This document shows positions 2,317-15,844 of a stretch of 64,000 bases of DNA, in pieces (position 1 is the stretch's first letter; each line of letters opens with the position of its first letter). The DNA lies in contig JAVWCU010000001.1 of assembly GCA_036648855.1 (NCBI GenBank), positions 3,121-67,120 on the forward strand, written 5' to 3'. A model generated the notes under the pieces. The model saw nothing but the letters and a program-made list of their open reading frames with translations. It made no database searches and was not told where the DNA came from. The DNA is from Bacilli bacterium (GTDB taxonomy: Bacteria > Bacillota_I > Bacilli_A > RF39 > UBA660). A program made the position numbers and the translations under genes.

Positions 2317-2610
2317 CTTTATATTCCTCCAATATTTTTGTTTTTATTTCTTACTTTATTGTCTTCTGTCTTTTATGTGTATTTAGCTATTATACACATA
2401 GTAACTATATTTAGTTTATCTTATATTACTCATACAAGCAATTATACATACTTTTCCATAACTATACCGTATCTTAACGATACTGATCCTTCGCTTCGCT
2501 CAGGATGCTAATATAGTAAAACGATACATAAGTTATTATTTTCTATAATGGTTTGCTATTTTATTTCTCTTGTTTGGATTCTTATTCTCTTTGTTTTATA
2601 TTATTCGATT

Positions 2611-2649
2611 CTCTTGTATTATTCTCTTGTATTATTCTCTTGTATTATT
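2611..2649. repeat. tandem direct repeat CTCTTGTATTATT x3, flanked on both sides by ATTCGATT
   Basis: read directly from the sequence (2603-2654 including flanks). Intergenic, between the GIY-YIG gene and 1591..2316. Confidence 0.8.
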
Positions 2650-2710
2650 CGATTGGACTAGGTCTTTCCCCAAAGAAATACAATTTTTTGTAGTAAATTC
2701 TAAAACGGAT

Positions 2711-2750
2711 ATAAGCTGATAAGCTTCTGATAAGCTTCTGATAAGCAATA
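2711..2750. repeat. array of four GATAAGC boxes (ATAAGCTGATAAGCTTCTGATAAGCTTCTGATAAGC), 8-11 nt apart
   Basis: read directly from the sequence. Followed by a TGCAAG...CTTGCA inverted repeat at 2753-2782. Confidence 0.8.
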
Positions 2751-2830
2751 AAATGCAAGAAGTGATATATCAACTTGCAAAATCACACTAATATTAAGTG
2801 TCTTTCCCTAGGAGATTCTGCAAGATTGTA

Positions 2831-3415
2831 TTATCTTTTATTCATAAATGGCTTTAATTCTTTGTTTATCAAAGGGATTCCATTATGATTTTTAATAGCT
2901 TCTTCTTCTGCTTGCAGTAGCGTGTCTTTATTATTAGAATTGATTTCTTTTAGCATTGCAAACTTTGTATCAGGATGTTCTAATATTTCTATTGGAATAT
3001 ATTTTTGAGTTAAATGCCTTTCTAGCCTTGATAAAAAATTAATTGAAGTAGATCCTATATATGATTTGTTTAATGTATTATTATAAACATAATAGACTCC
3101 TTTTTTATCCTTTAAGTCGCCAACTATATTGGCTACAAGTTGCTTATGATGTGTTATAACTGTTTTTCGTAATGTAGCTATGTTATTAAATAATAATATT
3201 TCATATTCAGGGAATTCTAAAGTAAGAATATCCTCATGATAAGAGTCATTATGTATTTCTACGTCGCCTGTTTTAGATATAAGACAACTAGCTTTTGTTG
3301 AGTATATTGCCTCAAAAACCTCAAAGATGTTTCCAAATTTAAAGTAAAAGATTGTTTTGTTTTCATGGCATATTATTGATATGCTGCTTGTTTTGCTGTC
3401 CAATTTTATTTTCAA
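2831..3415 (-). CDS. GIY-YIG family endonuclease-like protein (194 aa), TTG start
   Basis: GVYYVYNNTLNKSYIGSTSINFLSRLERH gives GIY-(x10)-YIG followed by conserved R and H, located in the C-terminal half. AAGGAGA 6 nt upstream of TTG at 3415. TAA stop. Confidence 0.65.
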   Translation of the reverse strand: MKIKLDSKTSSISIICHENKTIFYFKFGNIFEVFEAIYSTKASCLISKTGDVEIHNDSYHEDILTLEFPEYEILLFNNIATLRKTVITHHKQLVANIVGDLKDKKGVYYVYNNTLNKSYIGSTSINFLSRLERHLTQKYIPIEILEHPDTKFAMLKEINSNNKDTLLQAEEEAIKNHNGIPLINKELKPFMNKR

Positions 3416-3498
3416 TGTTGTTCTCCTTTGTAGTTATATCTATATATGATAACTGTTTATAATTATACTTCGTATAATAAATGTCCGCATACGCTACC

Positions 3499-3522
3499 AG
3501 CCTCGGCCCTTCGGGCCTCGGC
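3499..3522. other. GC-rich hairpin GGCCC-TTC-GGGCC flanked by direct repeat GCCTCGG
   Basis: stands out in AT-rich intergenic DNA between 2831..3415 and the small ORF 3541..3711. Confidence 0.5.
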
Positions 3523-3540
3523 ATGATATGAGATGCATGT

Positions 3541-3711
3541 TTATAAACAGCTTTCTATAAGAAGCTCATCATAATCCATAGATAAATCATCATAGTCAGC
3601 TATATTAATATCTTTTTCTATAGCGTCATTAATAATGCTGTCCATGATATCATTATCATTAAGTATATCTATTAAACTAAAAGCTCCTTTTAAATTTCTA
3701 ATGCTAGTCAT
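3541..3711 (-). CDS. possible small acidic protein (56 aa; MTSIRNLKGAFSLIDILNDNDIMDSIINDAIEKDINIADYDDLSMDYDELLIESCL)
   Basis: ATG at 3711 abuts the TAA of the upstream gene (TAAATG), with GAGGA 7 nt upstream. Below the ORF-track cutoff. Confidence 0.35.
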   Translation of the reverse strand: MTSIRNLKGAFSLIDILNDNDIMDSIINDAIEKDINIADYDDLSMDYDELLIESCL

Positions 3712-3993
3712 TTATATTTCCTCACTTTCAATATAATTATCACAATGTAGGCAATTATATTCATCTATATATGAATGATGATCTAAACATAGTTGACATT
3801 CCATAGTAGCTATACAATCTTTAGCTATTAAACAATTATCACATTGAGATTCACTACATTCTATATCATTCATATTAGACATTTGTATAATCCATTGTCT
3901 TTTAGTATCTTTATCAGTACAAGCAGCTATTAAATCAATAAGCCTATCTCTTTTTGCTGTCATATCAGTATTTAGTTTCATTTTTATTCTCAC
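3712..3993 (-). CDS. Cys-rich hypothetical protein (paired CxxC motifs; 93 aa from GTG 3993 or 89 aa from ATG 3981)
   Basis: ORF-track 3712..3993. TAA stop. CSESQCDNC...CQLCLDHH...CLHCDNY suggests a zinc-binding fold. Confidence 0.5.
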   Translation of the reverse strand: MRIKMKLNTDMTAKRDRLIDLIAACTDKDTKRQWIIQMSNMNDIECSESQCDNCLIAKDCIATMECQLCLDHHSYIDEYNCLHCDNYIESEEI

Positions 3994-4130
3994 TTTCTAT
4001 TTTTTCTATTGTATTTTAATACTACATTATTTCTGAAATTAAAGTAACCTTTAGATTTATCAGGAATTATTCCATACAATTCACTTTTATTATCCCATGC
4101 TATATCTATTTGTTTTATAAGTTGTGGCAT
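3984..4130 (-). CDS. possible 48-aa protein (MPQLIKQIDIAWDNKSELYGIIPDKSKGYFNFRNNVVLKYNRKNRKWE)
   Basis: ATG 4130 with GGAGA 6 nt upstream. One TGA two codons before the TAA, so the product is nearly the same under either code. Overlaps the start of 3712..3993. Confidence 0.2.
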
Positions 4131-4159
4131 AACTAATCTCCTGTCTATAATTAATCAAT

Positions 4160-4197
4160 ATTTAAAAAAAGAAGATGCCAATTAAGACATCTCCTGT
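4160..4197 (-). terminator. hairpin plus U7 tract on the minus strand, 30 nt after the stop of 4228..4992
   Basis: plus-strand AAAAAAAGAAGATGCCAATTAAGACATCTCC. The minus-strand RNA forms an AGAUG/CAUCU stem followed by UUUUUUU. Confidence 0.45.
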
Positions 4198-4227
4198 AAA
4201 GTAATTTTCTAAAAGCGAAGCTTGGTT

Positions 4228-4992
4228 TTATAGAGCACCAAATCCTCTAGATATTTGTTTATTGTTCTTATTAGCTTTAAGAGATTTTATAGTTCCTAGT
4301 AAAGATTGAACATTGTCTCCCTTTAAAAGTTCTTTGTGATTTAAATCTCTAATTACTGTATTAGCAACACAAGCAGTAGCTTCTACAGCAGTTTTAACAG
4401 TTCCAACACCTACTACAGCACCAATTTCTACAGCAGCTAAAGTTACTTCTCTACCTACTCTATTAGCAACTTGTGCAGTTGAACCACCTATCATACCAGC
4501 TCTTTTAGCCCAGTTTGTTACTTTAATTCCTTGTTGTGCTACTTTAGTACTAAGCTCTATAGCAGACATTTGATCTTCTGAAAGATTAACAGCTATTACA
4601 ACATATATTAAACTGTTATACATCTTAGGTGCAAATGGTTGTTGTAGAGTTACTATTTGTAAATCATTAACCTTAGCTCCTCTTAAAATATCGTTTCTTA
4701 CTATTTCATATTTCTCTGGCGATGTAGCTGTTAAAGAAAAACTATTTGCTACTAAATTCTCATTAACTTCATATGCTTCAGCTGGTAATACTCCACCTTG
4801 GATTCTTGCTGATATAGCTGACTCAATAATCATTATTTGACTATCAGTTAAAGCTTCTTCATCAAACTTAAGTGTTGTTATTTTTGTTTCTTCATCTGTC
4901 ATTACTTCTGCAACACCAACTGCTACCATTTCAAATAAATTTGCTAACAACTCGTCTATTAATGCCTTTTCTGTTGATTGAATAACTTTCAT
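4228..4992 (-). CDS. hypothetical protein (254 aa) with Ala/Val-rich C-terminal half
   Basis: AAGGAGA 8 nt upstream of ATG 4992. TAA stop. The conserved ATTTTCTAWAAGCGAAGCTTGGTTTTA element overlaps its stop codon. Confidence 0.6.
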   Translation of the reverse strand: MKVIQSTEKALIDELLANLFEMVAVGVAEVMTDEETKITTLKFDEEALTDSQIMIIESAISARIQGGVLPAEAYEVNENLVANSFSLTATSPEKYEIVRNDILRGAKVNDLQIVTLQQPFAPKMYNSLIYVVIAVNLSEDQMSAIELSTKVAQQGIKVTNWAKRAGMIGGSTAQVANRVGREVTLAAVEIGAVVGVGTVKTAVEATACVANTVIRDLNHKELLKGDNVQSLLGTIKSLKANKNNKQISRGFGAL

Positions 4993-5081
4993 ATTATTAT
5001 CTCCTTCTATACTCTGTATTTTATTATTATGAGCCTAGATATTTCTACCCAGACTCATGTAAAATCATTTTCTATTTGTTT

Positions 5082-5801
5082 TTAGAATTGAGGTTGTGCT
5101 CCTCCTGCCGATTCAAATTTAATTGGATCATCATTTGTATTATCTGTATTATCTTTAGTTACAGGTTTATTATCTCCTGCATTGTTCTTATCCTCAAAAG
5201 CTGGTGGGGATATTGGAGCTGGTCCAGATGATACTACTTCTGGTTCTCTTAAATTCTTACGTTCTGCCATTAGCATTTTCATAGTGTCGAAATCTTTATT
5301 TATCATACATTCTTTTATTTGAGCATCGAACATATCTCTAAGTTCTTTATCTGGATCAACTGTTACTGCTGTTCCTCTAGATACGCCTACAGATTTTTCA
5401 TATACTGCTAATTCATCATATGCTGATTTCTTTAAGTTTTGCATAGCCACATTATCTGTTTTTATATATTTAACTAAACTAAATCTTATATTTAATATCC
5501 TTTCAGCATACAACTTATATATATCTTTAAATGCATTTATTTCATCAACACTTAATGTCGTTCCAGAAAGAGTTTTCCCAGACTTAACATATTCTACTGC
5601 TGAACCACTCATCAAACCTTGTATTGTGTCCATAATATGTATATTTACAGTTTCACATGGTTCTATAGATATAGATTCTAATACTTCTTTTAATGCTAAT
5701 AAACTAGGCATAAATACTCCTGTACCTGATTTACAAATCTTTGTTCCTTCACTTAATGCCACTGCATTTCCTTGTCTTGCTACTATCATTACGTTTTTCA
5801 T
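5082..5801 (-). CDS. hypothetical protein (239 aa)
   Basis: AGGAGG 7 nt upstream of ATG 5801, preceded by conserved 52-nt leader copy A. TAA stop. Confidence 0.6.
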   Translation of the reverse strand: MKNVMIVARQGNAVALSEGTKICKSGTGVFMPSLLALKEVLESISIEPCETVNIHIMDTIQGLMSGSAVEYVKSGKTLSGTTLSVDEINAFKDIYKLYAERILNIRFSLVKYIKTDNVAMQNLKKSAYDELAVYEKSVGVSRGTAVTVDPDKELRDMFDAQIKECMINKDFDTMKMLMAERKNLREPEVVSSGPAPISPPAFEDKNNAGDNKPVTKDNTDNTNDDPIKFESAGGAQPQF

Positions 5802-5806
5802 AACGT

Positions 5807-5864
5807 ACCTCCTATAATTTAAATTTCATAAAAAACTATTTTCTATAAGCGAAGCTTGGTTTTA
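5807..5864 (-). promoter_or_regulatory. conserved promoter/leader element, copy A (minus-strand sense AAAACCAAGCTTCGCTTATAGAAAATAGTTTTTTATGAAATTTAAATTATAGGAGGT)
   Basis: about 48 of 52 nt identical to copy B at 6966-7017. The same box recurs at 4203-4230, 6405-6425 and at least five times in 7395-7720. Confidence 0.5.
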
Positions 5865-5877
5865 GTTTTTTAATTTC

Positions 5878-5905
5878 TAAAAACGGTTTTGAAAGGACCG
5901 TAAAC
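5878..5905 (-). terminator. short hairpin (ACGGU/ACCGU) followed by UUUUAG on the minus strand, just after the stop of 5915..6358
   Basis: plus-strand AAAAACGGTTTTGAAAGGACCGTAAACCTTTT. Weak 5-bp stem. Confidence 0.3.
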
Positions 5906-5914
5906 CTTTTATAT

Positions 5915-6358
5915 CTAAAATGAAAAGGCGTTTATAGCCATTAAATGTCTCAACTCATGTTTACATTCATGCAAAGTTTTTATATCTATTTCTTTATGAT
6001 GATATGCTCTATCACACATATCGTCTGTTGTTTTTATTATTTCTAAAGCATTTTCTATATCCCTTGTTTCTAGCAATTGTTTTATACTATTTATATTATT
6101 GTTATATACATAGCTAAATGTTTCATCTGTTTCTTGTTTTGAATTTTCTATTCTTTCATCTATTTCAATAGCCTTATTAAAAGCTTTTTCTAGATCTTCT
6201 AACATTTCTGGCAATTCTTTAACTAATGTTTTAACAAAATCTTTTCCTGCAGTAAGCAATTGTATAGCATCTGTTGCTGTGTACTCTTGTTCTAATGTAA
6301 TGTTTCCAATCTTAATATCTCTAACTTCTATATTTTCTATTTTGAATAATGTTTTCAT
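5915..6358 (-). CDS. hypothetical acidic protein (147 aa from ATG 6358)
   Basis: ORF-track 5915..6364. ATG 6358 has AGGAGG 9 nt upstream. TAG stop. Confidence 0.55.
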   Translation of the reverse strand: MKTLFKIENIEVRDIKIGNITLEQEYTATDAIQLLTAGKDFVKTLVKELPEMLEDLEKAFNKAIEIDERIENSKQETDETFSYVYNNNINSIKQLLETRDIENALEIIKTTDDMCDRAYHHKEIDIKTLHECKHELRHLMAINAFSF

Positions 6359-6477
6359 AACCAATGACCTCCTACAGTCTATAATATATTTTATTTGATA
6401 AGAGTATTTTAACTCTCATAAGTAACAATTTTCTATAAGCTTTAGCTTGTTTTTATTTCTCCCCCGAAGGGAAAAGA

Positions 6478-6957
6478 CTAAAATGCATCTACTGCACTTA
6501 TAGTCTTTGGTTTTTCTACTATTTGATTCATCAAATTCCAACTAGCATTTATGTAACTATTGAACACTGGAGATTTAATCCCTTTTTGTCCAAACAATCT
6601 AACATTTGTATTTAGTTCATTTAATTGCTTATGTAACTCTTTAACTTGTACTAATACTGCTGGATTTATTTCTTTTTTGTCTTCACCTTTAGTGTGACCT
6701 TTTTCAATCCAATATGATCTAGTATCTTCGTAAGCTAAAAAGCTAACTGTATTGCATAGTAAGAAAGTAACAGGTGTTTCAAATCTAGTATTTCTAGGTA
6801 TCCTAGCTAGAGTTTTATTAAGAGCTTTAAGAGCTTCTAATTGAGTATCTTCACCTTTGAAAGTTTCATAACTTCCTGAACCGTTTGCGTTTAATTTAGA
6901 ATCTGTAACTATTGCAGTGCCGCCTCTGCCTACTATTGTAAATATTCTTTGTGCCAT
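6478..6957 (-). CDS. hypothetical protein (159 aa from ATG 6957)
   Basis: ORF-track 6478..6966. ATG 6957 has AGGAGG 9 nt upstream, preceded by conserved leader copy B. TAG stop. Confidence 0.55.
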   Translation of the reverse strand: MAQRIFTIVGRGGTAIVTDSKLNANGSGSYETFKGEDTQLEALKALNKTLARIPRNTRFETPVTFLLCNTVSFLAYEDTRSYWIEKGHTKGEDKKEINPAVLVQVKELHKQLNELNTNVRLFGQKGIKSPVFNSYINASWNLMNQIVEKPKTISAVDAF

Positions 6958-6965
6958 AATTGACA

Positions 6966-7017
6966 ACCTCCTATAATTTAAATTTCATAAAATATAATTT
7001 TCTATAAGCGTAGCTTT
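6966..7017 (-). promoter_or_regulatory. conserved promoter/leader element, copy B
   Basis: near-identical to 5807-5858: ACCTCCTATAATTTAAATTTCATAAAA..ATTTTCTATAAGCG.AGCTT. Confidence 0.5.
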
Positions 7018-7403
7018 ATAATAATGTCTTTTGATAATCAGCTATATTAACTAATTATCAAAAAACATTATTTTCTACCCCCGAAGGGGAGAACCTAACT
7101 GCTGTAATCAGCTAGATCCTTTTGATAGACGAGTTACAGTCTCTCTATCTCAACTTACATCCCAATACTTCTTGAAGGCTCCGAAGTTTTAACGGATTTT
7201 ACAAGAATACACTTTACGCAGCTATGCGGTCTAGAGCTACTAGATAATACAAGGGTTTAACCTACGATCCCCTTAAGGTTAAAAATACGACATAACAGAC
7301 AGCGAATCCGTTATGAAGGTATGCACCTGGCTATTCAAGAGCATACACTCTCATCAGTCAATAGCAACTGCCTATCACTTTAGTCGATTAGGTAACTTTT
7401 TGT

Positions 7404-7654
7404 TTCATAAAAGACAATTTTCTATAGCGTCAGCTTAAGCTCTTAAAAAGCTTTTACCAAAACTATAAAAGAATTATCTTTCATAAGACATAATTTTCTA
7501 ATGCAATTTTAATTGCACTTGTTATTATGTCCTGAGACTGCACTCGTCAGTATTACTGAAAAGTATAGCTTCATAAAAGACAATTTTCTATAGCTTTAGC
7601 TTAAGCTTTTAAAAAGCTTTCACCAAAACTATAAAAGAATTATCTTTCATAAGA
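7404..7654. repeat. two 85-nt direct repeat units (7404-7488 and 7570-7654, about 90 % identical)
   Basis: each unit carries TTCATAAAAGACAATTTTCTATAGC, an AAGCTTTTAAAAAGCTT hairpin, and ends in TCATAAGA. Confidence 0.7.
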
Positions 7655-7719
7655 AACTATTTTCTATAAGGCTTTAGCCTTTAAGAAGCTTTAATGTCTC
7701 ATTAAAGATTATTTTCTAT

Positions 7720-7779
7720 GAGCACTGCCAGGGAAGCAAACGTAGCCGTGGCTATGGATTGCGACCGTAGGCAGTGCTC
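7720..7779. other. 60-nt palindromic stem-loop GAGCACTGCC...GGCAGTGCTC with nested inner hairpins
   Basis: perfect 10-bp outer stem read directly. Too short and wrongly proportioned for a tRNA cloverleaf. Confidence 0.6.
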
Positions 7780-7815
7780 TTTTATAATAACCCGTAGGGC
7801 TAGAGCTTTAGAATT

Positions 7816-7831
7816 ATCCCCCGAAGGGGAT
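7816..7831 (-). terminator. AUCCCC-UUCG-GGGGAU hairpin directly after the TAA of 7836..9323 (no clear U tract)
   Basis: plus-strand ATCCCCCGAAGGGGAT. On the minus-strand RNA this is a UUCG-tetraloop-capped 6-bp GC stem. Confidence 0.35.
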
Positions 7832-7835
7832 TACT

Positions 7836-9323
7836 TTAGAACGTAAAACGTGCTCCTCTCATAGATTTGCTTGACATAACTGCTTTTGGTTTTTCTTTAT
7901 CAACATCACCTACCCTTTCGTCATTATTATTTTTCGCTTTTTGAGCAGCTACCATAGCTTCGAATTCTTCTTGTTCTTTACGATCTGCTTCAATAGATTC
8001 GTTGTGAACTTGTGTATTCTTCACTTTCTCTTGTTCCTCAACATTTTGGAAAGCTATAACATCTTTTTGGTATTGCTCATACATCTTGCTAACAAATCTA
8101 GCTATTGGTTCAATTACTTTACTATGAGCATTTCCTTTTTGCCCTTTCATTAAACTACTTAAATGGTATACAACAGGTATATCATTAACAGCAGGTCTCC
8201 AAGTCCATAGCATAATTTGATTTCTCTTCTTATCTATTTCATATCCACTGTATAGATCATTGCTATTAAATTTACATACACCTTCAGCTGCGTGCACTCT
8301 AGCAAAATATCCTCTTCTATATCCTTCTTTTAAATCAACAGTAACAGGTGATACAAGTACTTTATTTTTAGGATGGCCAATCTTAACTAGCTCTTCTTTA
8401 TATAAAGCAACATCAGCTTCTGTTATTTCAGTATCAAAAGTCTTAGGAATAATAGTTATATTCTCACAACTTGGACTAGCCATTATAAAATGTTTTTCTG
8501 TAGAATATAAACACTCTTCATTCTTTCTTGACTTGAAGCTTGAAACCTTTTGTAATATATCTGATTTAGTTTCTACAATTACTATTTCAGACACGTGATT
8601 TACTTTCATTGCTTCTGGTTCAACTGTTTTAGTTTGTTCTTCTTCTAAACTAGACGCCTCTAACTCAGCAGCTATTCTTTCATCTTCTATCTGTCTTAAA
8701 ATTTCTTCATCTGTCATAACAGGCTTATTATTTTCTATTGGTTTATCATTTTCTTCTACATTATTTAATTTAATTTTTAGTTTTGAACATTTACTTTGGA
8801 ATGTTTCAGAACTCTTTTTATATGTATCAGCTTTAGCATTAGCTTCTTCTAATTGTTTCTTTAATTCAGCCATAGCATCATAACAATCACTTAACTCATC
8901 TTTAGTATTTACTAATGCACAATCTAATTGATTCACTTGTTTCTTTAAATCTGCTATTTCATTTTTGTTTGTTAATGTTACATTATTTGATCTGAATGAC
9001 TGTAATTCTTCTTTTAAATCTTTTTTATCTTTTGTTAAGCTTTTTATTTCTAACTTTAATTCTTCATTCTTGTTCTTATATTTAGTAGCTTGACCTCTTG
9101 CAGTTTTAAGTTCTGACTTAATAGCATTTAACTCATCTATTTTATTAGCTAATTTTACTTCTAAATCATTTGATACAGTAACAACTGGTGTAGATTCTAA
9201 CATATCTATGCAACCTAATAATTCTAATTCTTCTCTTAATCTTATTATTCTTATTTCCGCTAAGCTTTTTCTTTCTTGTGTTTGTCTTTCTAATAACTCT
9301 ATTATCATCATATCTGTATTCAT
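7836..9323 (-). CDS. hypothetical coiled-coil protein (495 aa)
   Basis: AAGGAGAA RBS upstream of ATG 9323. TAA stop. The N-terminal 230 aa are Lys/Glu/Leu heptad-rich. The C-terminal globular domain contains GYRRGYFARVHAAEG. Confidence 0.6.
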   Translation of the reverse strand: MNTDMMIIELLERQTQERKSLAEIRIIRLREELELLGCIDMLESTPVVTVSNDLEVKLANKIDELNAIKSELKTARGQATKYKNKNEELKLEIKSLTKDKKDLKEELQSFRSNNVTLTNKNEIADLKKQVNQLDCALVNTKDELSDCYDAMAELKKQLEEANAKADTYKKSSETFQSKCSKLKIKLNNVEENDKPIENNKPVMTDEEILRQIEDERIAAELEASSLEEEQTKTVEPEAMKVNHVSEIVIVETKSDILQKVSSFKSRKNEECLYSTEKHFIMASPSCENITIIPKTFDTEITEADVALYKEELVKIGHPKNKVLVSPVTVDLKEGYRRGYFARVHAAEGVCKFNSNDLYSGYEIDKKRNQIMLWTWRPAVNDIPVVYHLSSLMKGQKGNAHSKVIEPIARFVSKMYEQYQKDVIAFQNVEEQEKVKNTQVHNESIEADRKEQEEFEAMVAAQKAKNNNDERVGDVDKEKPKAVMSSKSMRGARFTF

Positions 9324-9366
9324 TTTAATTCTCCTTAGTTTTTAAATTATTTTTATATTTTTGTAT

Positions 9367-9395
9367 TAAAAAGAGACATAGATATCTATGCCTCT
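9367..9395 (-). terminator. rho-independent terminator after 9406..11484
   Basis: plus-strand AAAAGAGACATAGATATCTATGCCTCT. The minus-strand RNA forms a palindromic CAUAGAUAUCUAUG stem followed by a UCUUUUU run. Confidence 0.5.
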
Positions 9396-9405
9396 AATAT
9401 TTATA

Positions 9406-11484
9406 TTACTTTGCTATTAATATAGCTCCAACAGGTGTAGCTATTGTGTTAACAGCTTTTGCATTACTTAATTTGTCAGTTAAATAAAAATCATTTATGT
9501 CGCCTAACATTCTTCCATAGCTTTCTTTTCCTTCTTCATTTAACTTAGTCATATACATTTTATTGTCACCAGAATGCATTTTGAATTCTGCATCTAGTAC
9601 AAATTGCATATAATTGCTCCAATTAGCTAATGGTTTAGCTAACTTTTCTGCAACAATCTTTAAAGCTATGTCATCAGCATTTCTTGGAGCAGTATCTATA
9701 AGCTTAGATCTATTATATACCCTTGAATATACTGTCTTATCTTGCTCATATAGAGATGTCATTTCCATTATTAAGTCCTCTGATAATACATTGTCTTCCA
9801 TTGCTACATTAGATATAGAATCAAATAAGAAGTATTGAACTTCTTCAAATACATATGGATTTATATATTCTTTAAATTCTAAATATCCTTCTTCATTTAC
9901 TTTAATAATAATTGGACCTGTAAAATCCTCTTTATCTATTCTTAAAGCATACATCTCGCCACCATCATTATCCATACCTATATATGCTTGACCTTTATTA
10001 AATTCTAATAATTGTCCATCACATATTGCATCTTCAACTTCGAATATAGTTTCTGGTAATTCTATATCTACATTCTTAGTCATCTCAGACTTGTTAAAGT
10101 GACATTTTAATTCATTAGAGAATAAAGCTTCAACGGCTTTAAATCTATAATTTGAATTAGGCATATTATTTCTATAGAACCATCCAGCATTTACTGCTAT
10201 AAACATAGTATCTTGAGGTGAGAATCCTCTAATTTTACCAGCAGTATATATTACATTTCTACCAGTCATAGCTAATTCTTCAACTTTAGTCATAGATACA
10301 AATTTGTTATATTTAAATGTAGAATTTATCATCTCCATTATAATTACAGCTATTTCTTGAATTTCATTTACGGCTTCTTTTATTTTTACTTTTTCATTTG
10401 GATCAGTTATTCCAACAGTATATGATTTATCAAATTGACTAAATAAATTCATATTAGAAGCACTGTAATGAACATTTACTAATTCCTCTAAGTAATTGTT
10501 TAAATGCTTTATCATACCTTCAGATACTTGAGAAATAGGATCTACTATTACACATTCTTTTAGTAATTCAGCTCTCATTTTATAAAGATCTTTATCTGCT
10601 TGCTCTTGTGTAACTATTAAGTTTCCTTTATTATCTTGATTTGACTTATAGTATCTTTCAGTATTCTCTTTAACTAGTTTTTCATAATCAAATAATAAAG
10701 GTCTATCATTTAATATTTCATGTTTAAATTCATCAACATCATTATTTATATAACCCTTTTTCTTAGATATTATGTCGTTAAAGTTATTTTGAGTTGATAA
10801 ATTTCTAGATTTAAGTATCATTTCATCTGACATGAATTCTGATATCTCTAATAGTCCTTTTTTCAATTCAGGTTTCTTAGCAGCATCTATTTCTATTTCT
10901 GACATAACAGTTGCTATTATTCCTAAGTCTTGCCCAATCCTTACTAAGTCTTCTTGAGATGCTTGTCCTATATTAGCTATAGCTTCAGCGAATTCATTAA
11001 TTCTTTCTTTAACAGCTAAAAGAATCAATTGCTTTCTTCCATCTTTAGAAGTAACTTTTATGAATTCTTCTTTTTTAAATATCTTGTCGTATCCTACATT
11101 GATTCCTGTTCCAAACTTTTTAAATACTTTAGTAATTTTTGTGTTACATACTCTATCAGTACCTGGAACTAAGAATTGTTGATTCAATTCATTATCAACT
11201 AAAGTATCTGCTATTGATAAAGATACTATTATTAAACCAATTTGAGAACCTGCTGAGAAACTTATCTTAGCTAAAGCAGCAACAACTCCTATTTCATTGT
11301 TAGCTTTGCATAGTTCCATTAAATTTAATTCCATTTGTTCAAACTTACTACTTCTTAATACATTAACAGCTTGTAAATCATTTTCCATTTGTGTAGTTAA
11401 ACATTTTAATACATCAGTTTGATGTTGGTTATTAGCTTTTTCTTTAAACATATTGAATCCTCTTTGTTGTATATTAGTGTTCAT
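9406..11484 (-). CDS. hypothetical protein (692 aa)
   Basis: GAGGAGAA 7 nt upstream of ATG 11484. TAA stop. No in-frame TGA. No motif recognised. Confidence 0.6.
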   Translation of the reverse strand: MNTNIQQRGFNMFKEKANNQHQTDVLKCLTTQMENDLQAVNVLRSSKFEQMELNLMELCKANNEIGVVAALAKISFSAGSQIGLIIVSLSIADTLVDNELNQQFLVPGTDRVCNTKITKVFKKFGTGINVGYDKIFKKEEFIKVTSKDGRKQLILLAVKERINEFAEAIANIGQASQEDLVRIGQDLGIIATVMSEIEIDAAKKPELKKGLLEISEFMSDEMILKSRNLSTQNNFNDIISKKKGYINNDVDEFKHEILNDRPLLFDYEKLVKENTERYYKSNQDNKGNLIVTQEQADKDLYKMRAELLKECVIVDPISQVSEGMIKHLNNYLEELVNVHYSASNMNLFSQFDKSYTVGITDPNEKVKIKEAVNEIQEIAVIIMEMINSTFKYNKFVSMTKVEELAMTGRNVIYTAGKIRGFSPQDTMFIAVNAGWFYRNNMPNSNYRFKAVEALFSNELKCHFNKSEMTKNVDIELPETIFEVEDAICDGQLLEFNKGQAYIGMDNDGGEMYALRIDKEDFTGPIIIKVNEEGYLEFKEYINPYVFEEVQYFLFDSISNVAMEDNVLSEDLIMEMTSLYEQDKTVYSRVYNRSKLIDTAPRNADDIALKIVAEKLAKPLANWSNYMQFVLDAEFKMHSGDNKMYMTKLNEEGKESYGRMLGDINDFYLTDKLSNAKAVNTIATPVGAILIAK

Positions 11485-11551
11485 TTTTATTTTCTCCTCG
11501 GGACTTTATCTCCCATACCATTTATAATTTTTGTTTTTGTAATTTAAATAT

Positions 11552-11581
11552 AAAAAAAGAGGATGCATTAAATACATCCTC
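11552..11581 (-). terminator. rho-independent terminator after 11593..13773
   Basis: plus-strand AAAAAAAGAGGATGCATTAAATACATCCTC. The minus-strand RNA forms a GAGGAUG/CAUCCUC stem followed by U7. Confidence 0.6.
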
Positions 11582-11592
11582 ATAAAATATTA

Positions 11593-13773
11593 CTATTGAA
11601 CAGTTTTCTTAATAGTTACACCATCATTATCAGCGTTCTTTTCTAATAATATATCAACTAACTCTTTCTCAAATACTGTTGCAACACCATCATAATCTGT
11701 ATCCATACCAGCTAATCTATGCTTAACAGTATTATTTGGAGCCATTTTTATTACACCATAAGATGTATTTATAAAGTAATCTAATAAAATAATCTTTTCT
11801 TTATCAGATAATACTTCTAATTCAGTTATTCTCTTAACTAATCTATCTTTAGTTAAGAATGTCATTATACAATTTTCATCAGCAGATGGAGATGGATATT
11901 TGAATGTTACACCAGTTAATAATTCATCTATTGCTTTATCTTTATTAACTATCGAATCATCAGCCATTATTTCAGCTATTTCATCTTGGAATCTTAATTC
12001 TACATCATAAGAATAAGCTTCTAATCTTCCAGTGTTTTCATTAGCACCTAGTACACCATCAATCTTACCCTTTGTTAAGAAGAATGAGCAATCAAATAAA
12101 GCTCTTAAGAATACAGCATCTATTTCTATCTTAAACTTTTGTATTTGTGATTTTATTTGAGTTAACTCTTGCTTTATGTAGCTTTCTAATGCAGCTTCAT
12201 TTATTAAACCGTCTTCTACATATCTGAAGATGAATTGGGCTAAAGAACAATTTTTAGCATTTACATCTCCATTCATTAACTCATCTACTCTATTGTTATA
12301 TTGCTTATCTATTAAATTAATTAAAACTTTCATAGCTTTTTCTTTATTAGCATATATAAACTTTTGTAACATTTGACTTGCAGTTTGAGTAATAGAGCAT
12401 TTAGCTATATCTAATAAATAGTTTTGGAAACCACCATTTACTATTGCTTGTAAACTTACGTCTTTTAATGTTTTACCACCATTTCCATCTATTATCATAC
12501 CTAAACAATTTTCATTACCAACTATTATTAAATCATAATCAGCTTTGTTTAATTTAGATACGTCTGTACCAGCAGCTACTTTAAGTATTCTCTTGTTGTC
12601 TACAGTATCAATTAATACATCTTTCATATGTTGCATAACATCTTGACTATTAGCTTCACCAAATATTTTAGTAAATACTACATTACATCTAGCTTGTATA
12701 GCTAATAAAGCTGCTTGTGCTTTACTTATCTTTCTTCCAAGTAAAGCACACATATAAACCATATATTCTACAGAGAAGTATCCAGCACCATCATATGTAT
12801 TTCTATCTATAACAATATTGTTCTTTTCTAATTCTTCTAAAGCTTCAGGCATATAATCTTCTGGTCCTTCTATTTCTCCCATGTATATAACAACACCGAA
12901 TTCAGAATTTCCAAGTGTACCTGCTTCAATGCAAGGTGTACCAAGTTGTCCTATTCTTTTAGCAAATTTCTTAAGCTTGCCTATAGAATTCTGTACTGCT
13001 GTTGCTAAAGATAATGCAAATCCACCTACTTCATCTATTATGTCACAAGCTATCATGTTATCTACTGATGTAAACATAGCAGTTTCATTTCTTTCGTTAG
13101 ATGGAGACCAACTTATTATATTGTATGTCATTATATTATCTTGCTGATTTTTAGATTTACTAAAGTATACGTTATCTTCATCATCCAAACTAATACCTTT
13201 AGTCATAATGCTATTAATAATCTTATCTTTAGTATCTTTCATTGTATTTTTCTTGACTTTTAGATTTTTAAATTTAGTTTTCTTAAATACATTTTTAATA
13301 TCTCTATCTAACATAGAAAAATCTAATGTAGCTATAGAAGCTGCTTCTATATATCTTTTATCTGAATACGCATCTATATCACCGCATCTAACATCATATT
13401 TAGGTTGTATAGAATTGTTTTCTTTATCGTATTCTGATATTTTTATTGTACATGCTTCATTTACTTGGTCTTCTCCAGTGTATGCAACTAATGCTCTAGT
13501 GTATGGATTATTAGAACCTAACATGTTAAATGCTTCACCTTTTACAGCATAATTACCTTTAGTTCCAACTCTCTCAGCTCTTATCATTATACATTTTGTA
13601 ACATAACCTGTTTCGTATATAGAACTTGTTAATACTTTTACTAATGCTGCATGTCCTTTAGGTGATAATGTACCTCTTACTGGTATTGATAATCCATTAA
13701 TTATACTATCTACTACCTTTTGAATCTTTTCTGCCATTGATACTTTTCTGTTGTTAAATAAATAGTTGTTCAT
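11593..13773 (-). CDS. hypothetical protein (726 aa)
   Basis: AGGAGGAA 7 nt upstream of ATG 13773. TAG stop. No in-frame TGA. No confident motif; GNGGKT is not a canonical P-loop. Confidence 0.6.
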   Translation of the reverse strand: MNNYLFNNRKVSMAEKIQKVVDSIINGLSIPVRGTLSPKGHAALVKVLTSSIYETGYVTKCIMIRAERVGTKGNYAVKGEAFNMLGSNNPYTRALVAYTGEDQVNEACTIKISEYDKENNSIQPKYDVRCGDIDAYSDKRYIEAASIATLDFSMLDRDIKNVFKKTKFKNLKVKKNTMKDTKDKIINSIMTKGISLDDEDNVYFSKSKNQQDNIMTYNIISWSPSNERNETAMFTSVDNMIACDIIDEVGGFALSLATAVQNSIGKLKKFAKRIGQLGTPCIEAGTLGNSEFGVVIYMGEIEGPEDYMPEALEELEKNNIVIDRNTYDGAGYFSVEYMVYMCALLGRKISKAQAALLAIQARCNVVFTKIFGEANSQDVMQHMKDVLIDTVDNKRILKVAAGTDVSKLNKADYDLIIVGNENCLGMIIDGNGGKTLKDVSLQAIVNGGFQNYLLDIAKCSITQTASQMLQKFIYANKEKAMKVLINLIDKQYNNRVDELMNGDVNAKNCSLAQFIFRYVEDGLINEAALESYIKQELTQIKSQIQKFKIEIDAVFLRALFDCSFFLTKGKIDGVLGANENTGRLEAYSYDVELRFQDEIAEIMADDSIVNKDKAIDELLTGVTFKYPSPSADENCIMTFLTKDRLVKRITELEVLSDKEKIILLDYFINTSYGVIKMAPNNTVKHRLAGMDTDYDGVATVFEKELVDILLEKNADNDGVTIKKTVQ

Positions 13774-14149
13774 TTTTATTTCCTCCTGTGACTAACTATT
13801 CTTAGCTAGTCTACCTAATTAATTTTTTGTTTTTATATTTTAATTTTAAATTGTTGCCTTAATACATTTTGAAACTATTAGCTGCCTTCGTTATGACAAT
13901 ATCAACAAAGTATGGCCTCTCCCCCAATATTACTCCCTAAATGGAAGTTGCATGGAACTGCTGCCAGTAATGTCATAACTGAGTTGATGCTTAAAGATAT
14001 TGCCATTGTCATGAGATTAATAAGTAACATTGTTGAATTTACCTTTCTTGATTTATTAATCCCCCCCATTGGTGCTACTAATGTATTAACCACATGCAAG
14101 TCGTAGCTCCTAGCAAGTTTTCCCCAATGATTAATACGATTGTCAAGCC

Positions 14150-14211
14150 TGTATAGGTGTCCAAAACTATTTATTAAATAATATTAATAAACACTTCAAG
14201 ACACCTATACA
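14150..14211. repeat. perfect 12-bp inverted repeat TGTATAGGTGTC ... GACACCTATACA separated by a 38-nt AT-rich spacer
   Basis: read directly from the sequence. Lies in the 610-nt intergenic region between 11593..13773 and 14384..14884. Confidence 0.7.
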
Positions 14212-14383
14212 TGACGTCTTTTAAACTTATGACCCCCACTAACATTGTCAGTTTAAAATTTTGACTAATTATTACAATCTAAATTGTGTAATATTTCCAA
14301 TGTTGAAGATTAGTAACATAACCTATATGATGTTGGTTATGACATACCGTGTTGAATTTTATTTTGTAATAGAGAAGCTATAG

Positions 14384-14884
14384 TTATAGTTCCTCTTGTT
14401 TTTCAAAGCTTGTTCCAAAGATATCTAAAAGATCAGTTTTAGTAACATTCCATTCTCCATTTGGATTGTATACTTCTACATAACCTTTTTTAACAAGATC
14501 ATTAAAGAATGATTTGAATGTGATCTCGCTATTAATTCTTTTAATTAATAAGCCTTCTCTAAGTAGATCCGAAATAGTTCCACATGCTATGTTAAAATGT
14601 TTATAATTTAATTCATAAGCATGAGAGTAGTCTAGCATCTTGTTTCGAAAATATTCTACCTCGTCTTCTAGCTTTTTAATTCTGATTTCCATACCTTGTT
14701 TTGATGATTCAAGACTGCAAATCTTTGTTTGTAAATTTCTTTTTAGAGCTGATGTTTCTCTTTTGTGAGTATAGTTTTTCATGTTCTTAGCCATCTTTCT
14801 AATATTGATAGCTAGACAAGTAGTAACAAGGCTTAATAGCCCTGTCACTACTATAAGTATCATACATAATACTTTATAATTCAT
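14384..14884 (-). CDS. membrane-anchored coiled-coil protein (166 aa; N-terminal TM helix)
   Basis: GGGAGGA RBS upstream of ATG 14884. TAA stop. Hydrophobic N-terminus LCMILIVVTGLLSLVTTCLAI followed by heptad repeats. Confidence 0.55.
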   Translation of the reverse strand: MNYKVLCMILIVVTGLLSLVTTCLAINIRKMAKNMKNYTHKRETSALKRNLQTKICSLESSKQGMEIRIKKLEDEVEYFRNKMLDYSHAYELNYKHFNIACGTISDLLREGLLIKRINSEITFKSFFNDLVKKGYVEVYNPNGEWNVTKTDLLDIFGTSFEKQEEL

Positions 14885-14915
14885 AATTGTTTCCTCCCAA
14901 ATATAATATTAGAAT

Positions 14916-15101: not shown

Positions 15102-15198
15102 TATACTATCCTCCTTTCTTTTTTATCTGTTTCGTCTTAATTTTCAAAGACTCATCAGGGAGCATCTACACTCCGACAGATAAGAATCAATAGCCAAA

Positions 15199-15741: not shown

Positions 15742-15844
15742 AATATTCTCCTTGCTGTTATTGGCACGTCAGCTTAGCCTATTTTTAAAAATGTTTAAAT
15801 AAACACAAAAAAGCCTAGTAAATTACTAGACTCTATCTATCTAT

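What the first reader, a model, noticed from the sequence alone, without database searches (positions are those of the whole stretch)
7040..7835. 800-nt structured, ORF-free, GC-enriched island with a tandem array of the promoter-like box: candidate sRNA cluster, decoy-promoter array or replication origin
There is no protein-coding capacity on either strand. The region contains two 85-nt direct repeats. Each repeat has the box plus an AAGCTTTTAAAAAGCTT hairpin. It also contains a 60-nt perfect-stem palindrome (7720-7779), several CCCC-GAA-GGGG / UUCG-capped GC hairpins and a 10-bp inverted repeat (7051-7085).

The short spacing between boxes (80-90 nt) would give very short transcripts, as expected for small RNAs. 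Alternatively the array could titrate a transcription factor.
Basis: seen in the sequence. Interest (0 to 1): 0.6.

Follow-up and report, generated by a model that had tools for sequence, protein, structure and literature searches.

The report
Phage noncoding-RNA and promoter cluster
This 870-base gene-free stretch of an uncultured gut phage carries repeated copies of a phage-specific promoter-like signal and a gene for a previously undescribed, elaborately folded RNA about 320 bases long, whose function is unknown.

Summary
Window 6967-7835 has no ORF longer than 51 codons, whether TGA is read as a stop or as sense. It is GC-enriched and contains seven copies of a 22-nt box.

Everything reads on the minus strand, the strand of the flanking genes. 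The box is TAGAAAAT-N6-TTATGAAA, usually abutted upstream by a short hairpin. It also sits 22-55 nt upstream of the start codons of three downstream genes. All ten copies with two or fewer mismatches on that strand lie within 2545-7718, so it behaves as a lineage-specific promoter module.

The GC-rich core (7396-7075) is a gene for a structured RNA of about 320 nt, ending in a UUCG hairpin. It has homologues in three other phage lineages. About 11 helices and a loop-loop contact are kept through many compensatory changes. It matches no Rfam 15 family.

The "60-nt palindrome" is a conserved stem-loop (E1) that follows two tandem terminators.

A YonO/QDE-1-like two-barrel RNA polymerase gene lies 4 kb upstream and is a candidate reader of the box; this is inferred.

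The sRNA-cluster reading is partly right. The origin and decoy readings are unsupported. The RNA's function is unknown.

The parts
7818..7830 (-). T1: CCCCUUCGGGGG hairpin directly after the stop codon of the 495-aa gene. It is the first of two tandem terminator-like hairpins.
   Evidence: A C4-U(A/U)CG-G4 hairpin is found at the same place after the orthologous gene in all relatives examined.
7791..7799 (-). T2: CCCUACGGG hairpin, followed by a U-rich run in relatives.
   Evidence: The identical 9-mer sits at the same place in both clades of relatives (L117, L079, L099, L078, L076, L097, L124, L128, L072 and others).
7720..7779 (-). It has a 10-bp closing stem and a conserved internal loop, UACGG / CCUUGG (CCCUGG in this window).
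   Evidence: z = -5.85; homologues -4.0 to -6.3; nhmmer hits in L124, L097, L079, L128, L076; RNAalifold consensus; 9 of 18 pairs with compensatory change.
7697..7718 (-). Box copy 1 (TAGAAAATaatcttTAATGAGA; 2 mismatches). Its 3' half forms one arm of a 14-nt inverted repeat (7683-7696 / 7700-7713).
   Evidence: (I5)
7645..7666 (-). Box copy 2 (perfect), preceded by the hairpin AAGGCUAAAGCCUU. Lies inside direct repeat 7570-7666.
7569..7590 (-). Box copy 3 (1 mismatch), preceded by the hairpin AGCUAAAGCU. Lies inside direct repeat 7570-7666.
7501..7568 (-). S1 leader segment carrying the family-wide motif ACGAGUGCAGU (7547-7537). In L117 and L099 the homologous segment is the 5' end of the structured RNA itself.
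   Evidence: 30 matches in 633 kb of family loci, all on the gene strand, against 2 in 679 kb of unrelated loci
7479..7500 (-). Box copy 4 (perfect), preceded by the hairpin UGCAAUUAAAAUUGCA. Lies inside direct repeat 7404-7500.
7403..7424 (-). Box copy 5 (perfect). It is the promoter-like module directly upstream of the structured RNA core.
   Evidence: In L117, L099 and L079 the RNA is likewise preceded by that phage's own box variant.
7075..7396 (-). Structured non-coding RNA core of about 320 nt.
- P1: 7392-7386 / 7376-7371
- P2: 7365-7360 / 7335-7330
- P2a: 7353-7348 / 7341-7336
- P4: 7315-7308 / 7298-7291
- Window-only hairpin or pseudoknot: 7280-7251
- P5: 7244-7240 / 7234-7230
- P6: 7228-7225 / 7220-7217
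- P7: 7206-7202 / 7174-7170
- P8: 7196-7193 / 7183-7180
- P9: 7149-7141 / 7133-7124
- P10: 7118-7109 / 7101-7092
- Loop-loop pairing: 7139-7134 with 7107-7102
- 3' UUCG hairpin: 7090-7078
   Evidence: Homologues. Covariation. Coordinates. No Rfam match. G-U pairs occur in the minus-strand sense only.
7056..7077 (-). Box copy 6 (degenerate: TAGAAAATaatgttTTTTGATA). It forms the 5' arm of the long AT-rich inverted repeat.
7020..7072 (-). Inverted repeat with 25-nt arms (88% complementary, 3-nt gap), between the RNA and the promoter of the next gene. An inverted repeat sits at the same place in L099 and L117.
   Evidence: I1; flagged terminator-like
6983..7016 (-). Hairpin AAGCUACGCUU plus box copy 7 (perfect). 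It is the promoter-like module of the 159-aa gene, with the box ending 25 nt before the ATG at 6957.
   Evidence: The same AAGC-N3-4-GCTT-ATAGAAAAT module lies upstream of the genes starting at 5801 and about 6358.

Best explanation
The island marks a boundary between two transcription classes, and the slot at that boundary carries non-coding cargo. It belongs to a large, AT-rich phage of gut Firmicutes and is read on the minus strand.

**The boundary.** An upstream operon encodes a YonO/QDE-1-like two-barrel RNA polymerase plus two conserved partner genes. It ends in two tandem UNCG hairpins (T1, T2) and a conserved stem-loop (E1). Downstream begins a block of cassettes. Each cassette is headed by a phage-lineage-specific promoter module: a short hairpin abutting TAGAAAAT-N6-TTATGAAA, with transcription starting in or just after the 3' half of the box.

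**The cargo.** The first cassettes encode no protein.
- One or more promoters drive a short leader with the motif ACGAGUGCAGU.
- They also drive a highly structured RNA of about 320 nt, made of roughly 11 helices. Its conserved 3' domain has two adjacent hairpins whose loops pair with each other. It ends at a CCCCUUCGGGGG hairpin.
- A 97-nt duplication has added two extra promoter copies.
- After the RNA come a long inverted repeat and then the promoter of the first protein gene, whose product (159 aa) has an RNase H-like fold.

**What is shown and what is inferred.**
- Shown: the RNA's conservation and structure, the position and strand bias of the box, the synteny, and the fold of the polymerase.
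- Inferred: that the box is a promoter; that it is read by the phage polymerase or by a phage-modified host polymerase rather than by the sigma-A holoenzyme; and that the RNA acts in trans as a folded RNA, for example as a protein-binding scaffold or decoy in host take-over or anti-defence. The last point rests on the RNA being accessory cargo that is present in only some relatives.
For: **Box behaves as a promoter module.**
- There are 13 matches against 0.98 expected. Eleven are clustered at 2526-7718, all on the gene strand.
- At up to 2 mismatches, all ten minus-strand copies lie within 2545-7718. The only other one is a 2-mismatch match on + at 59546.
- Three copies carry the identical extended module AAGC-N3-4-GCTT-ATAGAAAAT. 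They end 22, 25 and 55 nt before the ATGs of genes that have GGAGG ribosome-binding sites.
- The orthologous gene in 15 of the 17 related loci compared has the same bipartite motif, A(T/C)A(G/T)AAAn-N6-TTnTGAAA, at a similar short distance upstream of the RBS. The upstream half differs by lineage.
- The box does not fit sigma-70 spacing or hexamers, and sigma-70-like sites are not enriched (24 found against 27.4 expected).

**Phage polymerase.**
- The 726-aa protein (11593-13773, minus strand) was modelled at pLDDT 85 and pTM 0.83.
- It matches QDE-1 and RDR2 (E = 1e-7) and the crAss-like phi14:2 virion RNAP (E = 7e-5).
- It has an invariant HRLAGMDTDYDG motif, which is of the DxDxD type.
- The portal is related to that of Bacillus phage 0305phi8-36. 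That phage is reported to encode a YonO-like RNAP (PMC7824862).

**Structured RNA.**
- nhmmer and covariance models find it in L079/L120-L123, L099/L100 and L117/L118. Proteins in these phages are only 45-82% identical to those in the window.
- 3' domain: 98.8% of cells paired and 7 pairs with compensatory change, one of them in the loop-loop helix. No shuffle out of 500 reached this. With the partner slid, 28-41% are paired and there are no compensatory changes.
- 5' domain: the model was built from one lineage only, and it finds the other three. 94.7% of cells are paired and 17 of 27 pairs are compensatory, against 1-6 when slid.
- Hand alignment: 29 of 63 pairs are compensatory.

**Accessory slot.** In relatives the same gap is 330-1460 nt long. 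It holds other small genes or other repeats in place of the RNA.
Against: - There are no expression data. The transcription start, the ends of the transcripts and the polymerase that reads the box are all inferred.
- In SPbeta, YonO transcribes late genes (PMC5467207).
- Only four independent lineages carry the RNA. The alignments used for the pair counts were fitted to the structure, which inflates the paired fraction.
- The hairpins abutting each box could be terminators of the preceding unit rather than part of the promoter.
- In the window and in L079 a box lies between the S1 leader and the RNA core, so the true 5' end of the mature RNA is ambiguous.
- The single-sequence MFE reproduces only 33 of the 72 comparative pairs.
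- Nothing points to a specific function for the RNA.
Confidence: 0.72

Rival explanations
1. The structured RNA is a cis-acting leader (riboswitch, attenuator or processing element) that controls the downstream 159-aa RNase H-like gene. It is not an independent trans-acting RNA.
For: - In all four lineages the RNA lies upstream of the same conserved gene, on the same strand.
- Between the two sit a terminator-like hairpin and a long inverted repeat whose 5' arm contains a box. This arrangement could act as a switch or as an RNase III site.
Against: - The gene has its own complete hairpin-plus-box module 25 nt upstream of its ATG.
- Relatives without the RNA (L076, L078, L097, L124, L128 and the L072 clade) keep the gene and its promoter.
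- In L079 about 750 nt of other repeats separate the RNA from the gene. In L120 a 62-aa gene does so as well.
Confidence: 0.1
2. The box array is a decoy or sink that titrates a transcription factor or polymerase, or a set of tandem promoters whose only role is to boost downstream expression. The transcripts themselves would be by-products.
For: - Seven boxes lie within 735 nt, and two of them came from a 97-nt duplication.
- Relatives also have three or more boxes in this gap.
- The inter-box segments are poorly conserved.
Against: - The largest transcript region is under strong structural selection, so it is not a by-product.
- Each box is oriented like a working promoter, and identical modules head real genes.
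- Nothing tested here speaks to titration.
Confidence: 0.1
3. The island is an origin of replication, or another DNA-level site such as iterons, a packaging site or a partition site. The boxes would be protein-binding repeats and the inverted repeats would extrude as cruciforms.
For: - It is a repeated 22-nt motif in a non-coding, inverted-repeat-rich region next to conserved large genes of unknown function (692 aa and 495 aa).
- One inverted repeat has 25-nt arms.
Against: - Cumulative GC skew falls steadily through 1-18 kb and turns only at about 18 kb, where gene orientation flips.
- Box spacing is 52-90 nt and irregular.
- The boxes also sit in front of ribosome-binding sites of genes several kb away.
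- Compensatory changes that include G-U pairs on one strand only point to selection on RNA, not on DNA.
Confidence: 0.05
4. The region is decayed coding sequence, or an assembly artefact of repeats, with no function.
For: Short-read assemblies of the same phage break inside the 97-nt repeats, with contig ends at 7485 and 7625.
Against: - The two repeat copies differ at 7 positions, and independent contigs match the window exactly up to the repeat.
- The RNA is invariant in strain variants that carry SNPs in the neighbouring gene.
- Its 3' domain is 89% identical on average across phages whose flanking proteins are 26-82% identical.
- The helices covary.
Confidence: 0.02

Closest known systems
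Large structured non-coding RNAs of unknown function carried by phages and prophages (GOLLD, ROOL and similar 'ornate' RNAs; PMC12286853)
   Same: - It is a multi-helix RNA with a conserved tertiary-type contact (loop-loop pairing).
- It is encoded in a phage genome.
- It forms a GC-rich island in an AT-rich intergenic region.
- It is patchily distributed.
- Its function is unknown.
   Different: - It shows no sequence or structure match to any Rfam 15 family, these included.
- It is smaller, at about 320 nt against roughly 500-800 nt (from my own knowledge).
- It is found so far in one family of uncultured Firmicutes phages only.
Phage-specific promoters read by phage-encoded RNA polymerases (T7-type about 23-bp promoters; N4 virion-RNAP hairpin promoters)
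   Same: - It is a motif of about 22-35 bp, specific to one lineage, that heads many cassettes on one strand.
- It differs between related phages.
- The phage encodes its own non-canonical RNA polymerase.
- A short hairpin with a 3-4-nt loop abuts the motif, reminiscent of N4 early promoters (from my own knowledge).
   Different: - The polymerase here is a two-barrel YonO/QDE-1-type enzyme, not a T7-like one.
- No promoter for a YonO-type enzyme had been defined as of PMC5467207.
- The hairpin lies upstream of the box rather than centred near -11 as in N4.
- Recognition by the phage enzyme is not shown.
YonO of the Bacillus subtilis prophage SPbeta (single-chain two-barrel DNA-dependent RNAP)
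   Same: - The 726-aa protein has the two-barrel fold and a DxDxD-type invariant motif.
- It lies in a phage of Firmicutes whose portal is related to that of 0305phi8-36, a phage reported to carry a YonO-like gene.
   Different: - There is no detectable sequence similarity to proteins in the phage collection or in the PDB.
- The match is by fold only, to QDE-1, RDR2 and crAss gp66.
- DNA-dependent activity and its targets have not been tested.
Lambda-type nut/boxB or put leader elements (RNA hairpins just downstream of promoters that modify the transcribing polymerase)
   Same: The ACGAGUGCAGU motif lies in a hairpin a few tens of nt downstream of boxes. It sits upstream of several different cassettes in a terminator-rich region across the whole family. 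In L076 it also lies in the 5' region of the polymerase gene.
   Different: - This is a positional analogy only.
- The hairpin register differs between phages.
- No antitermination factor has been identified, and nothing has been tested.

Membership tests
Any Rfam 15 RNA family (including hammerhead, HDV-like, tmRNA, 6S, RNase P, T-box, GOLLD, ROOL, HEARO) | Covariance-model score at or above the family's gathering threshold, or at least a low E-value. | tested here: not met
   - Gathering scan of the whole window: the only hit is a hammerhead at 15124-15182.
- E-value scan of 6900-7900 up to E = 10: nothing over 7075-7400. The rest are chance hits to AT-rich hairpins.
- The homologous loci L117, L120 and L099 also give nothing over the RNA.
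- ARAGORN finds no tRNA or tmRNA.
Hammerhead ribozyme (considered because of CUGAUGA at 7356-7350) | Core CUGANGA ... GAAA flanking stem II, with three stems around the cleavage site. | tested here: not met
   - The sequence reads CUGAUGA-GAGUGUAUGCUC-UUGAAU.
- Homologues have CUGAUAA...UUAAAU (L079) and CUGUAGA (L117), which would destroy the invariant core positions.
- There is no cmscan hit.
Sigma-70 / sigma-A promoter | TTGACA-like and TATAAT-like hexamers 16-18 bp apart, with A at position 2 and T at position 6 of the -10 element. | tested here: not met
   - The two conserved halves of the box are separated by 6 nt. TATGAA lacks T6 and TGAAAT lacks A2 (read from the sequence).
- If TAGAAA is taken as a -35 element, a -10-like hexamer follows in only some copies.
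- Sigma-70-like sites are not enriched: 24 found against 27.4 expected.
Phage-specific promoter class | The same extended motif in one orientation in front of several genes, at a fixed short distance from the start codon and far above chance. | tested here: met
   window; relatives.
Phage-specific promoter class | Transcripts start at the motif, and the motif is required for transcription by a defined polymerase. | not testable with these tools
   Needs 5'-end mapping and in vitro transcription.
Intrinsic (rho-independent) terminator | GC-rich hairpin followed directly by a U tract. | tested here: inconclusive
   - The scan flags 7067-7025 and 7315-7291 (the latter is helix P4 of the RNA) but not the UUCG hairpins. 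In the window the UUCG hairpins are followed by AUAAUUCU and UAGAAAAU.
- In relatives T2 is followed by UUUU(U)GG.
Structured non-coding RNA gene (generic) | Homologues in diverged genomes, with helices kept through compensatory changes on one strand. | tested here: met
   homologues; covariation, with controls. Caveat: only four independent lineages, and the alignments were fitted to the model.
Replication origin with iterons | Strand-compositional switch or marker-frequency peak, closely and regularly spaced repeats, and an adjacent AT-rich unwinding element. | tested here: not met
   - There is no skew switch at 7-8 kb.
- Repeat spacing is 52-90 nt.
- The repeats also precede ribosome-binding sites elsewhere.
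- Marker frequency cannot be tested here.
Two-barrel (YonO/QDE-1-like) RNA polymerase, for the 726-aa neighbour | Double-psi beta-barrel fold with a metal-binding DxDxD-type loop. | tested here: met
   - Model at pLDDT 85.
- Foldseek against the PDB: RDR2 at 1e-7, QDE-1 at 1.4e-7, phi14:2 gp66 at 7e-5.
- D691, D693 and D695 are invariant in 30 sequences.
- Catalytic activity has not been tested.

The most novel reading that the evidence does not exclude
The hairpin-plus-box module (AAGC-loop-GCTT-ATAGAAAAT-N6-TTATGAAA and its lineage variants) is the long-sought promoter of YonO-type two-barrel phage RNA polymerases. The 320-nt RNA it drives is a new class of phage RNA with an active role. Possible roles include a protein-sequestering or catalytic RNA used in host take-over or anti-defence, or something linked to the apparent TGA recoding of the late genes.
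Probability: 0.25. Interest if true: 0.8.

Novelty: new variant of a known kind. Interest (0 to 1): 0.6.

Why it matters
- **A new RNA family.** It adds a well-supported structured RNA family, absent from Rfam 15, in a little-known group of large phages of gut Firmicutes.
- **An unusual phage group.** These phages look odd in several ways. They carry a two-barrel single-chain RNA polymerase and self-cleaving ribozymes in intergenic gaps. They have at least two further conserved non-coding islands. TGA appears to be read as sense in the structural genes.
- **A testable candidate promoter.** No promoter for a YonO-type polymerase had been defined when the enzyme was characterised (PMC5467207). 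The box and the polymerase gene sit side by side, so the pairing can be tested directly in vitro.
- **An open function.** The RNA's function is unknown. Its patchy presence in a variable slot is the pattern seen for phage counter-defence and host-takeover cargo.

Tried and rejected
- **Rfam and tRNA scans.** Rfam at gathering and at E-value thresholds, on the window and on relatives, and ARAGORN: nothing matches the RNA.
- **DNA similarity to 50,697 phage records.** No match for the region or for 25 kb around it.
- **tblastn of the 495-, 692- and 726-aa proteins against phages.** No match.
- **Pfam and PHROGs on 28 ORFs.** Almost nothing: a portal, a GIY-YIG domain and weak metallopeptidase-like hits.
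- **Relatives via the two flanking proteins in IMG/VR.** None found.
- **Word-indexed homologue search with the 495-aa protein.** None, not even a self-hit, probably because low-complexity words filled the candidate list.
- **Box pattern across IMG/VR.** 63 loci, each with a single match, consistent with chance.
- **RNA motif GTTAAAACTTCNGAGCC across IMG/VR.** 16 loci, none matching the covariance model.
- **Genome collection scan with the polymerase alignment.** No relative found.
- **Paralogue of the RNA inside the window.** None.
- **Hammerhead reading of CUGAUGA.** Rejected (see membership test).
- **Long-range pairing proposed by RNAalifold on a three-sequence MAFFT alignment (columns 104-116 with 253-264).** Rejected in favour of the local hairpin P4, which covaries in all four lineages.
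- **K-turn or C/D-box reading of GACUGAUGA...UUGA.** Considered from the sequence but not pursued. The data fit a 6-nt bulge between two coaxial helices.
- **Shared motif upstream of plus-strand genes.** None found. The search instead exposed the in-frame TGA codons.
- **Literature full-text search for the conserved RNA strings.** Only chance hits. The supplements of a human-microbiome RNA catalogue gave no hit in the 200 of 408 files held.
Full report
**1. What is in the sequence**

The window is AT-rich, at 29% GC, and phage-like. Genes run on the minus strand from 1 to about 18 kb and on the plus strand beyond. A portal gene lies at 30459-32057.

The flagged stretch lies between the start of a 159-aa gene (ATG at 6957, minus strand) and the stop of a 495-aa gene (7836, minus strand).
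- It has no ORF above 51 codons on either strand, whether TGA is read as a stop or as sense. With TAG as sense the gene strand stays at 47 codons or fewer.
- It is GC-enriched. 7071-7401 holds 40-42% and 7651-7921 reaches 48% in 150-nt windows. The window mean is 29.3%, sd 4.8.
Three corrections apply:
  - The repeats are 97 nt at 93% identity (7404-7500 and 7570-7666), and each carries two boxes.
  - The 60-nt palindrome has a perfect 10-bp closing stem but an imperfect interior.
  - The inverted repeat near 7050 has 25-nt arms, at 7020-7044 / 7048-7072.

**2. The box is a minus-strand, promoter-like module**

Read on the strand of the genes, the box is TAGAAAAT-N6-TTATGAAA.
- A loose form of it occurs 13 times against 0.98 expected. 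Eleven copies lie between 2526 and 7718, all on the minus strand.
- At up to 2 mismatches to the full 16 specified bases, all ten minus-strand copies lie within 2545-7718. The only other one is a 2-mismatch match on + at 59546. None lies upstream, in 7836-18000.
- Three copies carry the identical extended form AAGC-N3-4-GCTT-ATAGAAAAT. They end 22, 25 and 55 nt before the ATGs of genes with GGAGG ribosome-binding sites.
- Nearly every copy is abutted on its 5' side by a short hairpin.
- The box does not fit sigma-70 geometry, and sigma-70-like sites are not enriched.

**3. Relatives and synteny**

The region and its flanking proteins have no match in 50,697 phage records.

The 726-aa protein 4 kb upstream (11593-13773, minus strand) has 71 homologues at 40-49% identity in metagenome assemblies. 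Some come from contigs of 120-255 kb.

Loci fetched through this protein and through the 159-aa protein all show the same gene order:
- a protein of about 710 aa, then one of about 680 aa, then one of about 450 aa;
- a non-coding gap of 330-1460 nt;
- the 159-aa gene.

After the roughly 450-aa gene, all relatives have two tandem UNCG hairpins: C4-U(A/U)CG-G4, then the identical CCCUACGGG. Most members of the window's clade then have a homologue of the "palindrome" E1. E1 folds as a long irregular stem-loop with z of -4 to -6 and covarying apical pairs.

Each relative has its own variant of the box. Among loci already oriented to the gene strand, box variants were found only on that strand, and they are arrayed in this gap and in front of the orthologous genes:
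- GCAGAAAAT-N6-TTGTGAAA in the L072 clade;
- AAAACC-N-TATAAAT-N-TTTTGTGA in L079, L099 and L078;
- ATAGAAAGT-N6-TTTATGAAA, preceded by CCCAUUCUGGG hairpins, in L117, the closest relative.

**4. A phage RNA polymerase next door**

- The 726-aa protein was modelled with pLDDT 85.
- It matches the two-barrel RNA-dependent polymerases RDR2 and QDE-1 (E about 1e-7) and the virion RNAP of crAss-like phage phi14:2 (E = 7e-5).
- It has an invariant HRLAGMDTDYDG loop.
- The portal is related to those of Moorella phage MTATph1 and Bacillus jumbo phage 0305phi8-36. The latter is reported to encode a YonO-like single-chain RNAP (PMC7824862).
- The promoter of YonO itself was left undefined in its characterisation (PMC5467207).

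From this I infer, but have not shown, the following sequence of events. The polymerase operon is closed by T1, T2 and E1. The box-headed cassettes downstream form a separate transcription class. That class is read by this enzyme or by a phage-modified host enzyme.

**5. The GC-rich core is a structured RNA gene**

The minus strand of 7400-7070 folds more stably than the plus strand: -95.8 against -78.8 kcal/mol, with z about -3 for both.

Homologues:
- nhmmer found homologues in L079 and in L099/L100.
- A covariance model of the 116-nt 3' domain (R1) then found L117/L118 and L120-L123, and nothing else in 49 + 14 loci.
- That makes four independent lineages. Their flanking proteins are 26-82% identical.
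- The 3' domain averages 89% nucleotide identity in the three-lineage alignment used to build R1.

Structure:
- On the model-based alignment of the 3' domain, 98.8% of cells pair and 7 of 33 pairs show compensatory change. No shuffle out of 500 reached this, and with partners slid there were no compensatory changes and 28-41% pairing.
- The 7 pairs include one in a 6-bp pairing between the loops of adjacent hairpins P9 and P10. That pairing is CUGCAA/UUGCAG in three lineages and CUGUAA/UUACAG in the window.
- A second model (R2) was built from the L079 lineage alone with a hand-drawn structure for P1, P2, P2a and P4. It recovered the window (E = 4e-8), L099 and L117 at the expected places.
- On the R2 alignment 94.7% of cells pair and 17 of 27 pairs are compensatory, against 1-6 when slid.
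- Hand alignment adds P5 and P6 and gives 29 compensatory pairs out of 63.
- G-U pairs occur in the minus-strand sense only.

No Rfam 15 family matches, either in the window or in the homologues. A CUGAUGA string is not a hammerhead core, because homologues mutate the invariant positions.

The RNA ends in CCCCUUCGGGGG (7090-7078), the same kind of hairpin that follows the protein genes.

**6. Architecture of the array**

On the minus strand, in order:
- T1
- T2
- E1
- box at 7718
- box at 7666
- box at 7590
- S1 leader
- box at 7500
- box at 7424
- RNA core
- UUCG hairpin
- degenerate box at 7077, embedded in a 25-bp-arm inverted repeat
- hairpin plus box at 7004
- RBS and the 159-aa gene

The S1 segment carries ACGAGUGCAGU.
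- This motif occurs 30 times in 633 kb of family loci, always on the gene strand, against twice in 679 kb of unrelated loci.
- It lies a few tens of nt downstream of boxes.
- In L117 and L099 it is the 5' end of the RNA itself. In other relatives it precedes small protein genes, and in L076 the polymerase gene.

In the window and in L079 a box separates S1 from the core. The window's 97-nt duplication probably inserted it, so the mature 5' end is uncertain.

The rest of the inter-box sequence is not conserved.

An inverted repeat follows the RNA at the same place in L099 and L117. Its role is open: terminator, RNase III-type processing site or operator.

**7. What it most likely does**

- Shown: a conserved, highly structured RNA, flanked by a promoter-like module and a terminal hairpin, in a variable slot.
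- In relatives without the RNA, that slot holds other small genes or other repeats (L076, L078, L097, L124, L128).
- Inferred: the RNA is independently transcribed accessory cargo that acts through its fold, most plausibly by binding a protein.
- I put about 0.7 on the general model (promoter modules plus a structured RNA gene) and much less on any specific function.

**8. Rivals**

- *Cis-regulatory leader for the 159-aa gene.* Unlikely. The gene keeps its own promoter module and exists without the RNA in many relatives.
- *Decoy array.* Cannot be excluded, but it is not needed.
- *Origin of replication.* Not supported by skew, repeat spacing or the RNA-type covariation.
- *Assembly artefact.* Excluded by exact agreement of independent contigs up to the repeats and by the differences between the two repeat copies.

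**9. Novelty**

Promoter cassettes and phage non-coding RNAs are known kinds of thing. This RNA family is not in Rfam 15, and no described counterpart was found.

The candidate promoter sits next to a polymerase type whose promoters were still undefined when YonO was characterised. I rate it a new variant of a known kind, with interest 0.6.

Noticed in passing
window 15124-15182 (-): A type III hammerhead ribozyme scores 53.7 bits (gathering 48.5, E = 4.5e-9). It sits in the intergenic gap between the 180-aa SprT-like ORF and the 166-aa ORF. Parts of this gap are conserved in relatives.
   Followed up: partly
window 18000-64000 (+), e.g. 49604-56152, 20856-22832, 30129-32267: TGA appears to be read as a sense codon in the structural (plus-strand) arm.
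- Reading TGA as sense merges six same-frame ORFs into one of 2182 codons.
- It extends the portal ORF from 532 to 712 codons.
- Many apparent starts lack an RBS and follow an in-frame TGA.
- In relatives, the same DNA was called as four genes in one record and as one 439-aa gene in another.
- No tRNA was found in the window.
   Followed up: partly
window 13774-14383 (-): A 610-nt gap without a convincing ORF lies upstream of the polymerase-like gene. It is conserved at the nucleotide level in the L076-L079 and L096-L100 loci (nhmmer E from 1e-24 to 1e-35). It has G-rich patches and is a second candidate non-coding RNA or regulatory region.
   Followed up: partly
window 2317-2830 (-): A third conserved non-coding gap, with nhmmer E from 5e-4 to 3e-20 to nine related loci (7e-6 or better in eight of them). 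It contains a box copy at 2545.
   Followed up: no
window 11593-13773 (-): The 726-aa protein has the two-barrel RNA polymerase fold (QDE-1, RDR2, crAss phi14:2 gp66) and an invariant DTDYDG loop. It has no sequence match in the PDB or the phage collection. The 692-aa and 495-aa genes downstream of it are always syntenic with it and have no recognisable domains.
   Followed up: yes
window 6478-6957 (-): The first box-driven protein (159 aa, 75-82% identical across the clade) is predicted with pLDDT 92 to have an RNase H-like fold (Foldseek E = 5.6e-5, TM 0.53). By eye, the position of the first catalytic Asp (IFTDGS in E. coli RNase HI) reads IFTIVG, so it may not be an active RNase H.
   Followed up: partly
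L099 4325-4390 (+): An HDV-like ribozyme (HDV-F-prausnitzii model) scores 37 bits, below the gathering score of 44, with E = 0.0018. It lies just upstream of a DUF3920-like gene in a relative. Together with the hammerhead, this suggests that small self-cleaving ribozymes are common in this phage family.
   Followed up: no
L079 16690-16810 and 17035-17160; L120 3770-3900: A different GC-richer element of about 130 nt, headed by a box, is duplicated between the structured RNA and the 159-aa gene in the L079 lineage. It ends in the hairpin CUUCUCCUACGGGAGAAG. It is absent from the window and may be another accessory RNA.
   Followed up: no
window 7485 and 7625: Short-read (Logan) assemblies of the same phage from four runs break exactly inside the 97-nt direct repeats. 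The 159-aa protein is on record as 'MAG: hypothetical protein RR406_00095 [Bacilli bacterium]', with 79,031 nt as the longest contig on record for its cluster.
   Followed up: yes
window 7280-7251 (-): Inside the RNA, only the window's copy has an insertion. It can form an H-type pseudoknot, with AACCU/AGGUU interleaved with AAGGG/CCCUU. This was read from the sequence and not tested.
   Followed up: no
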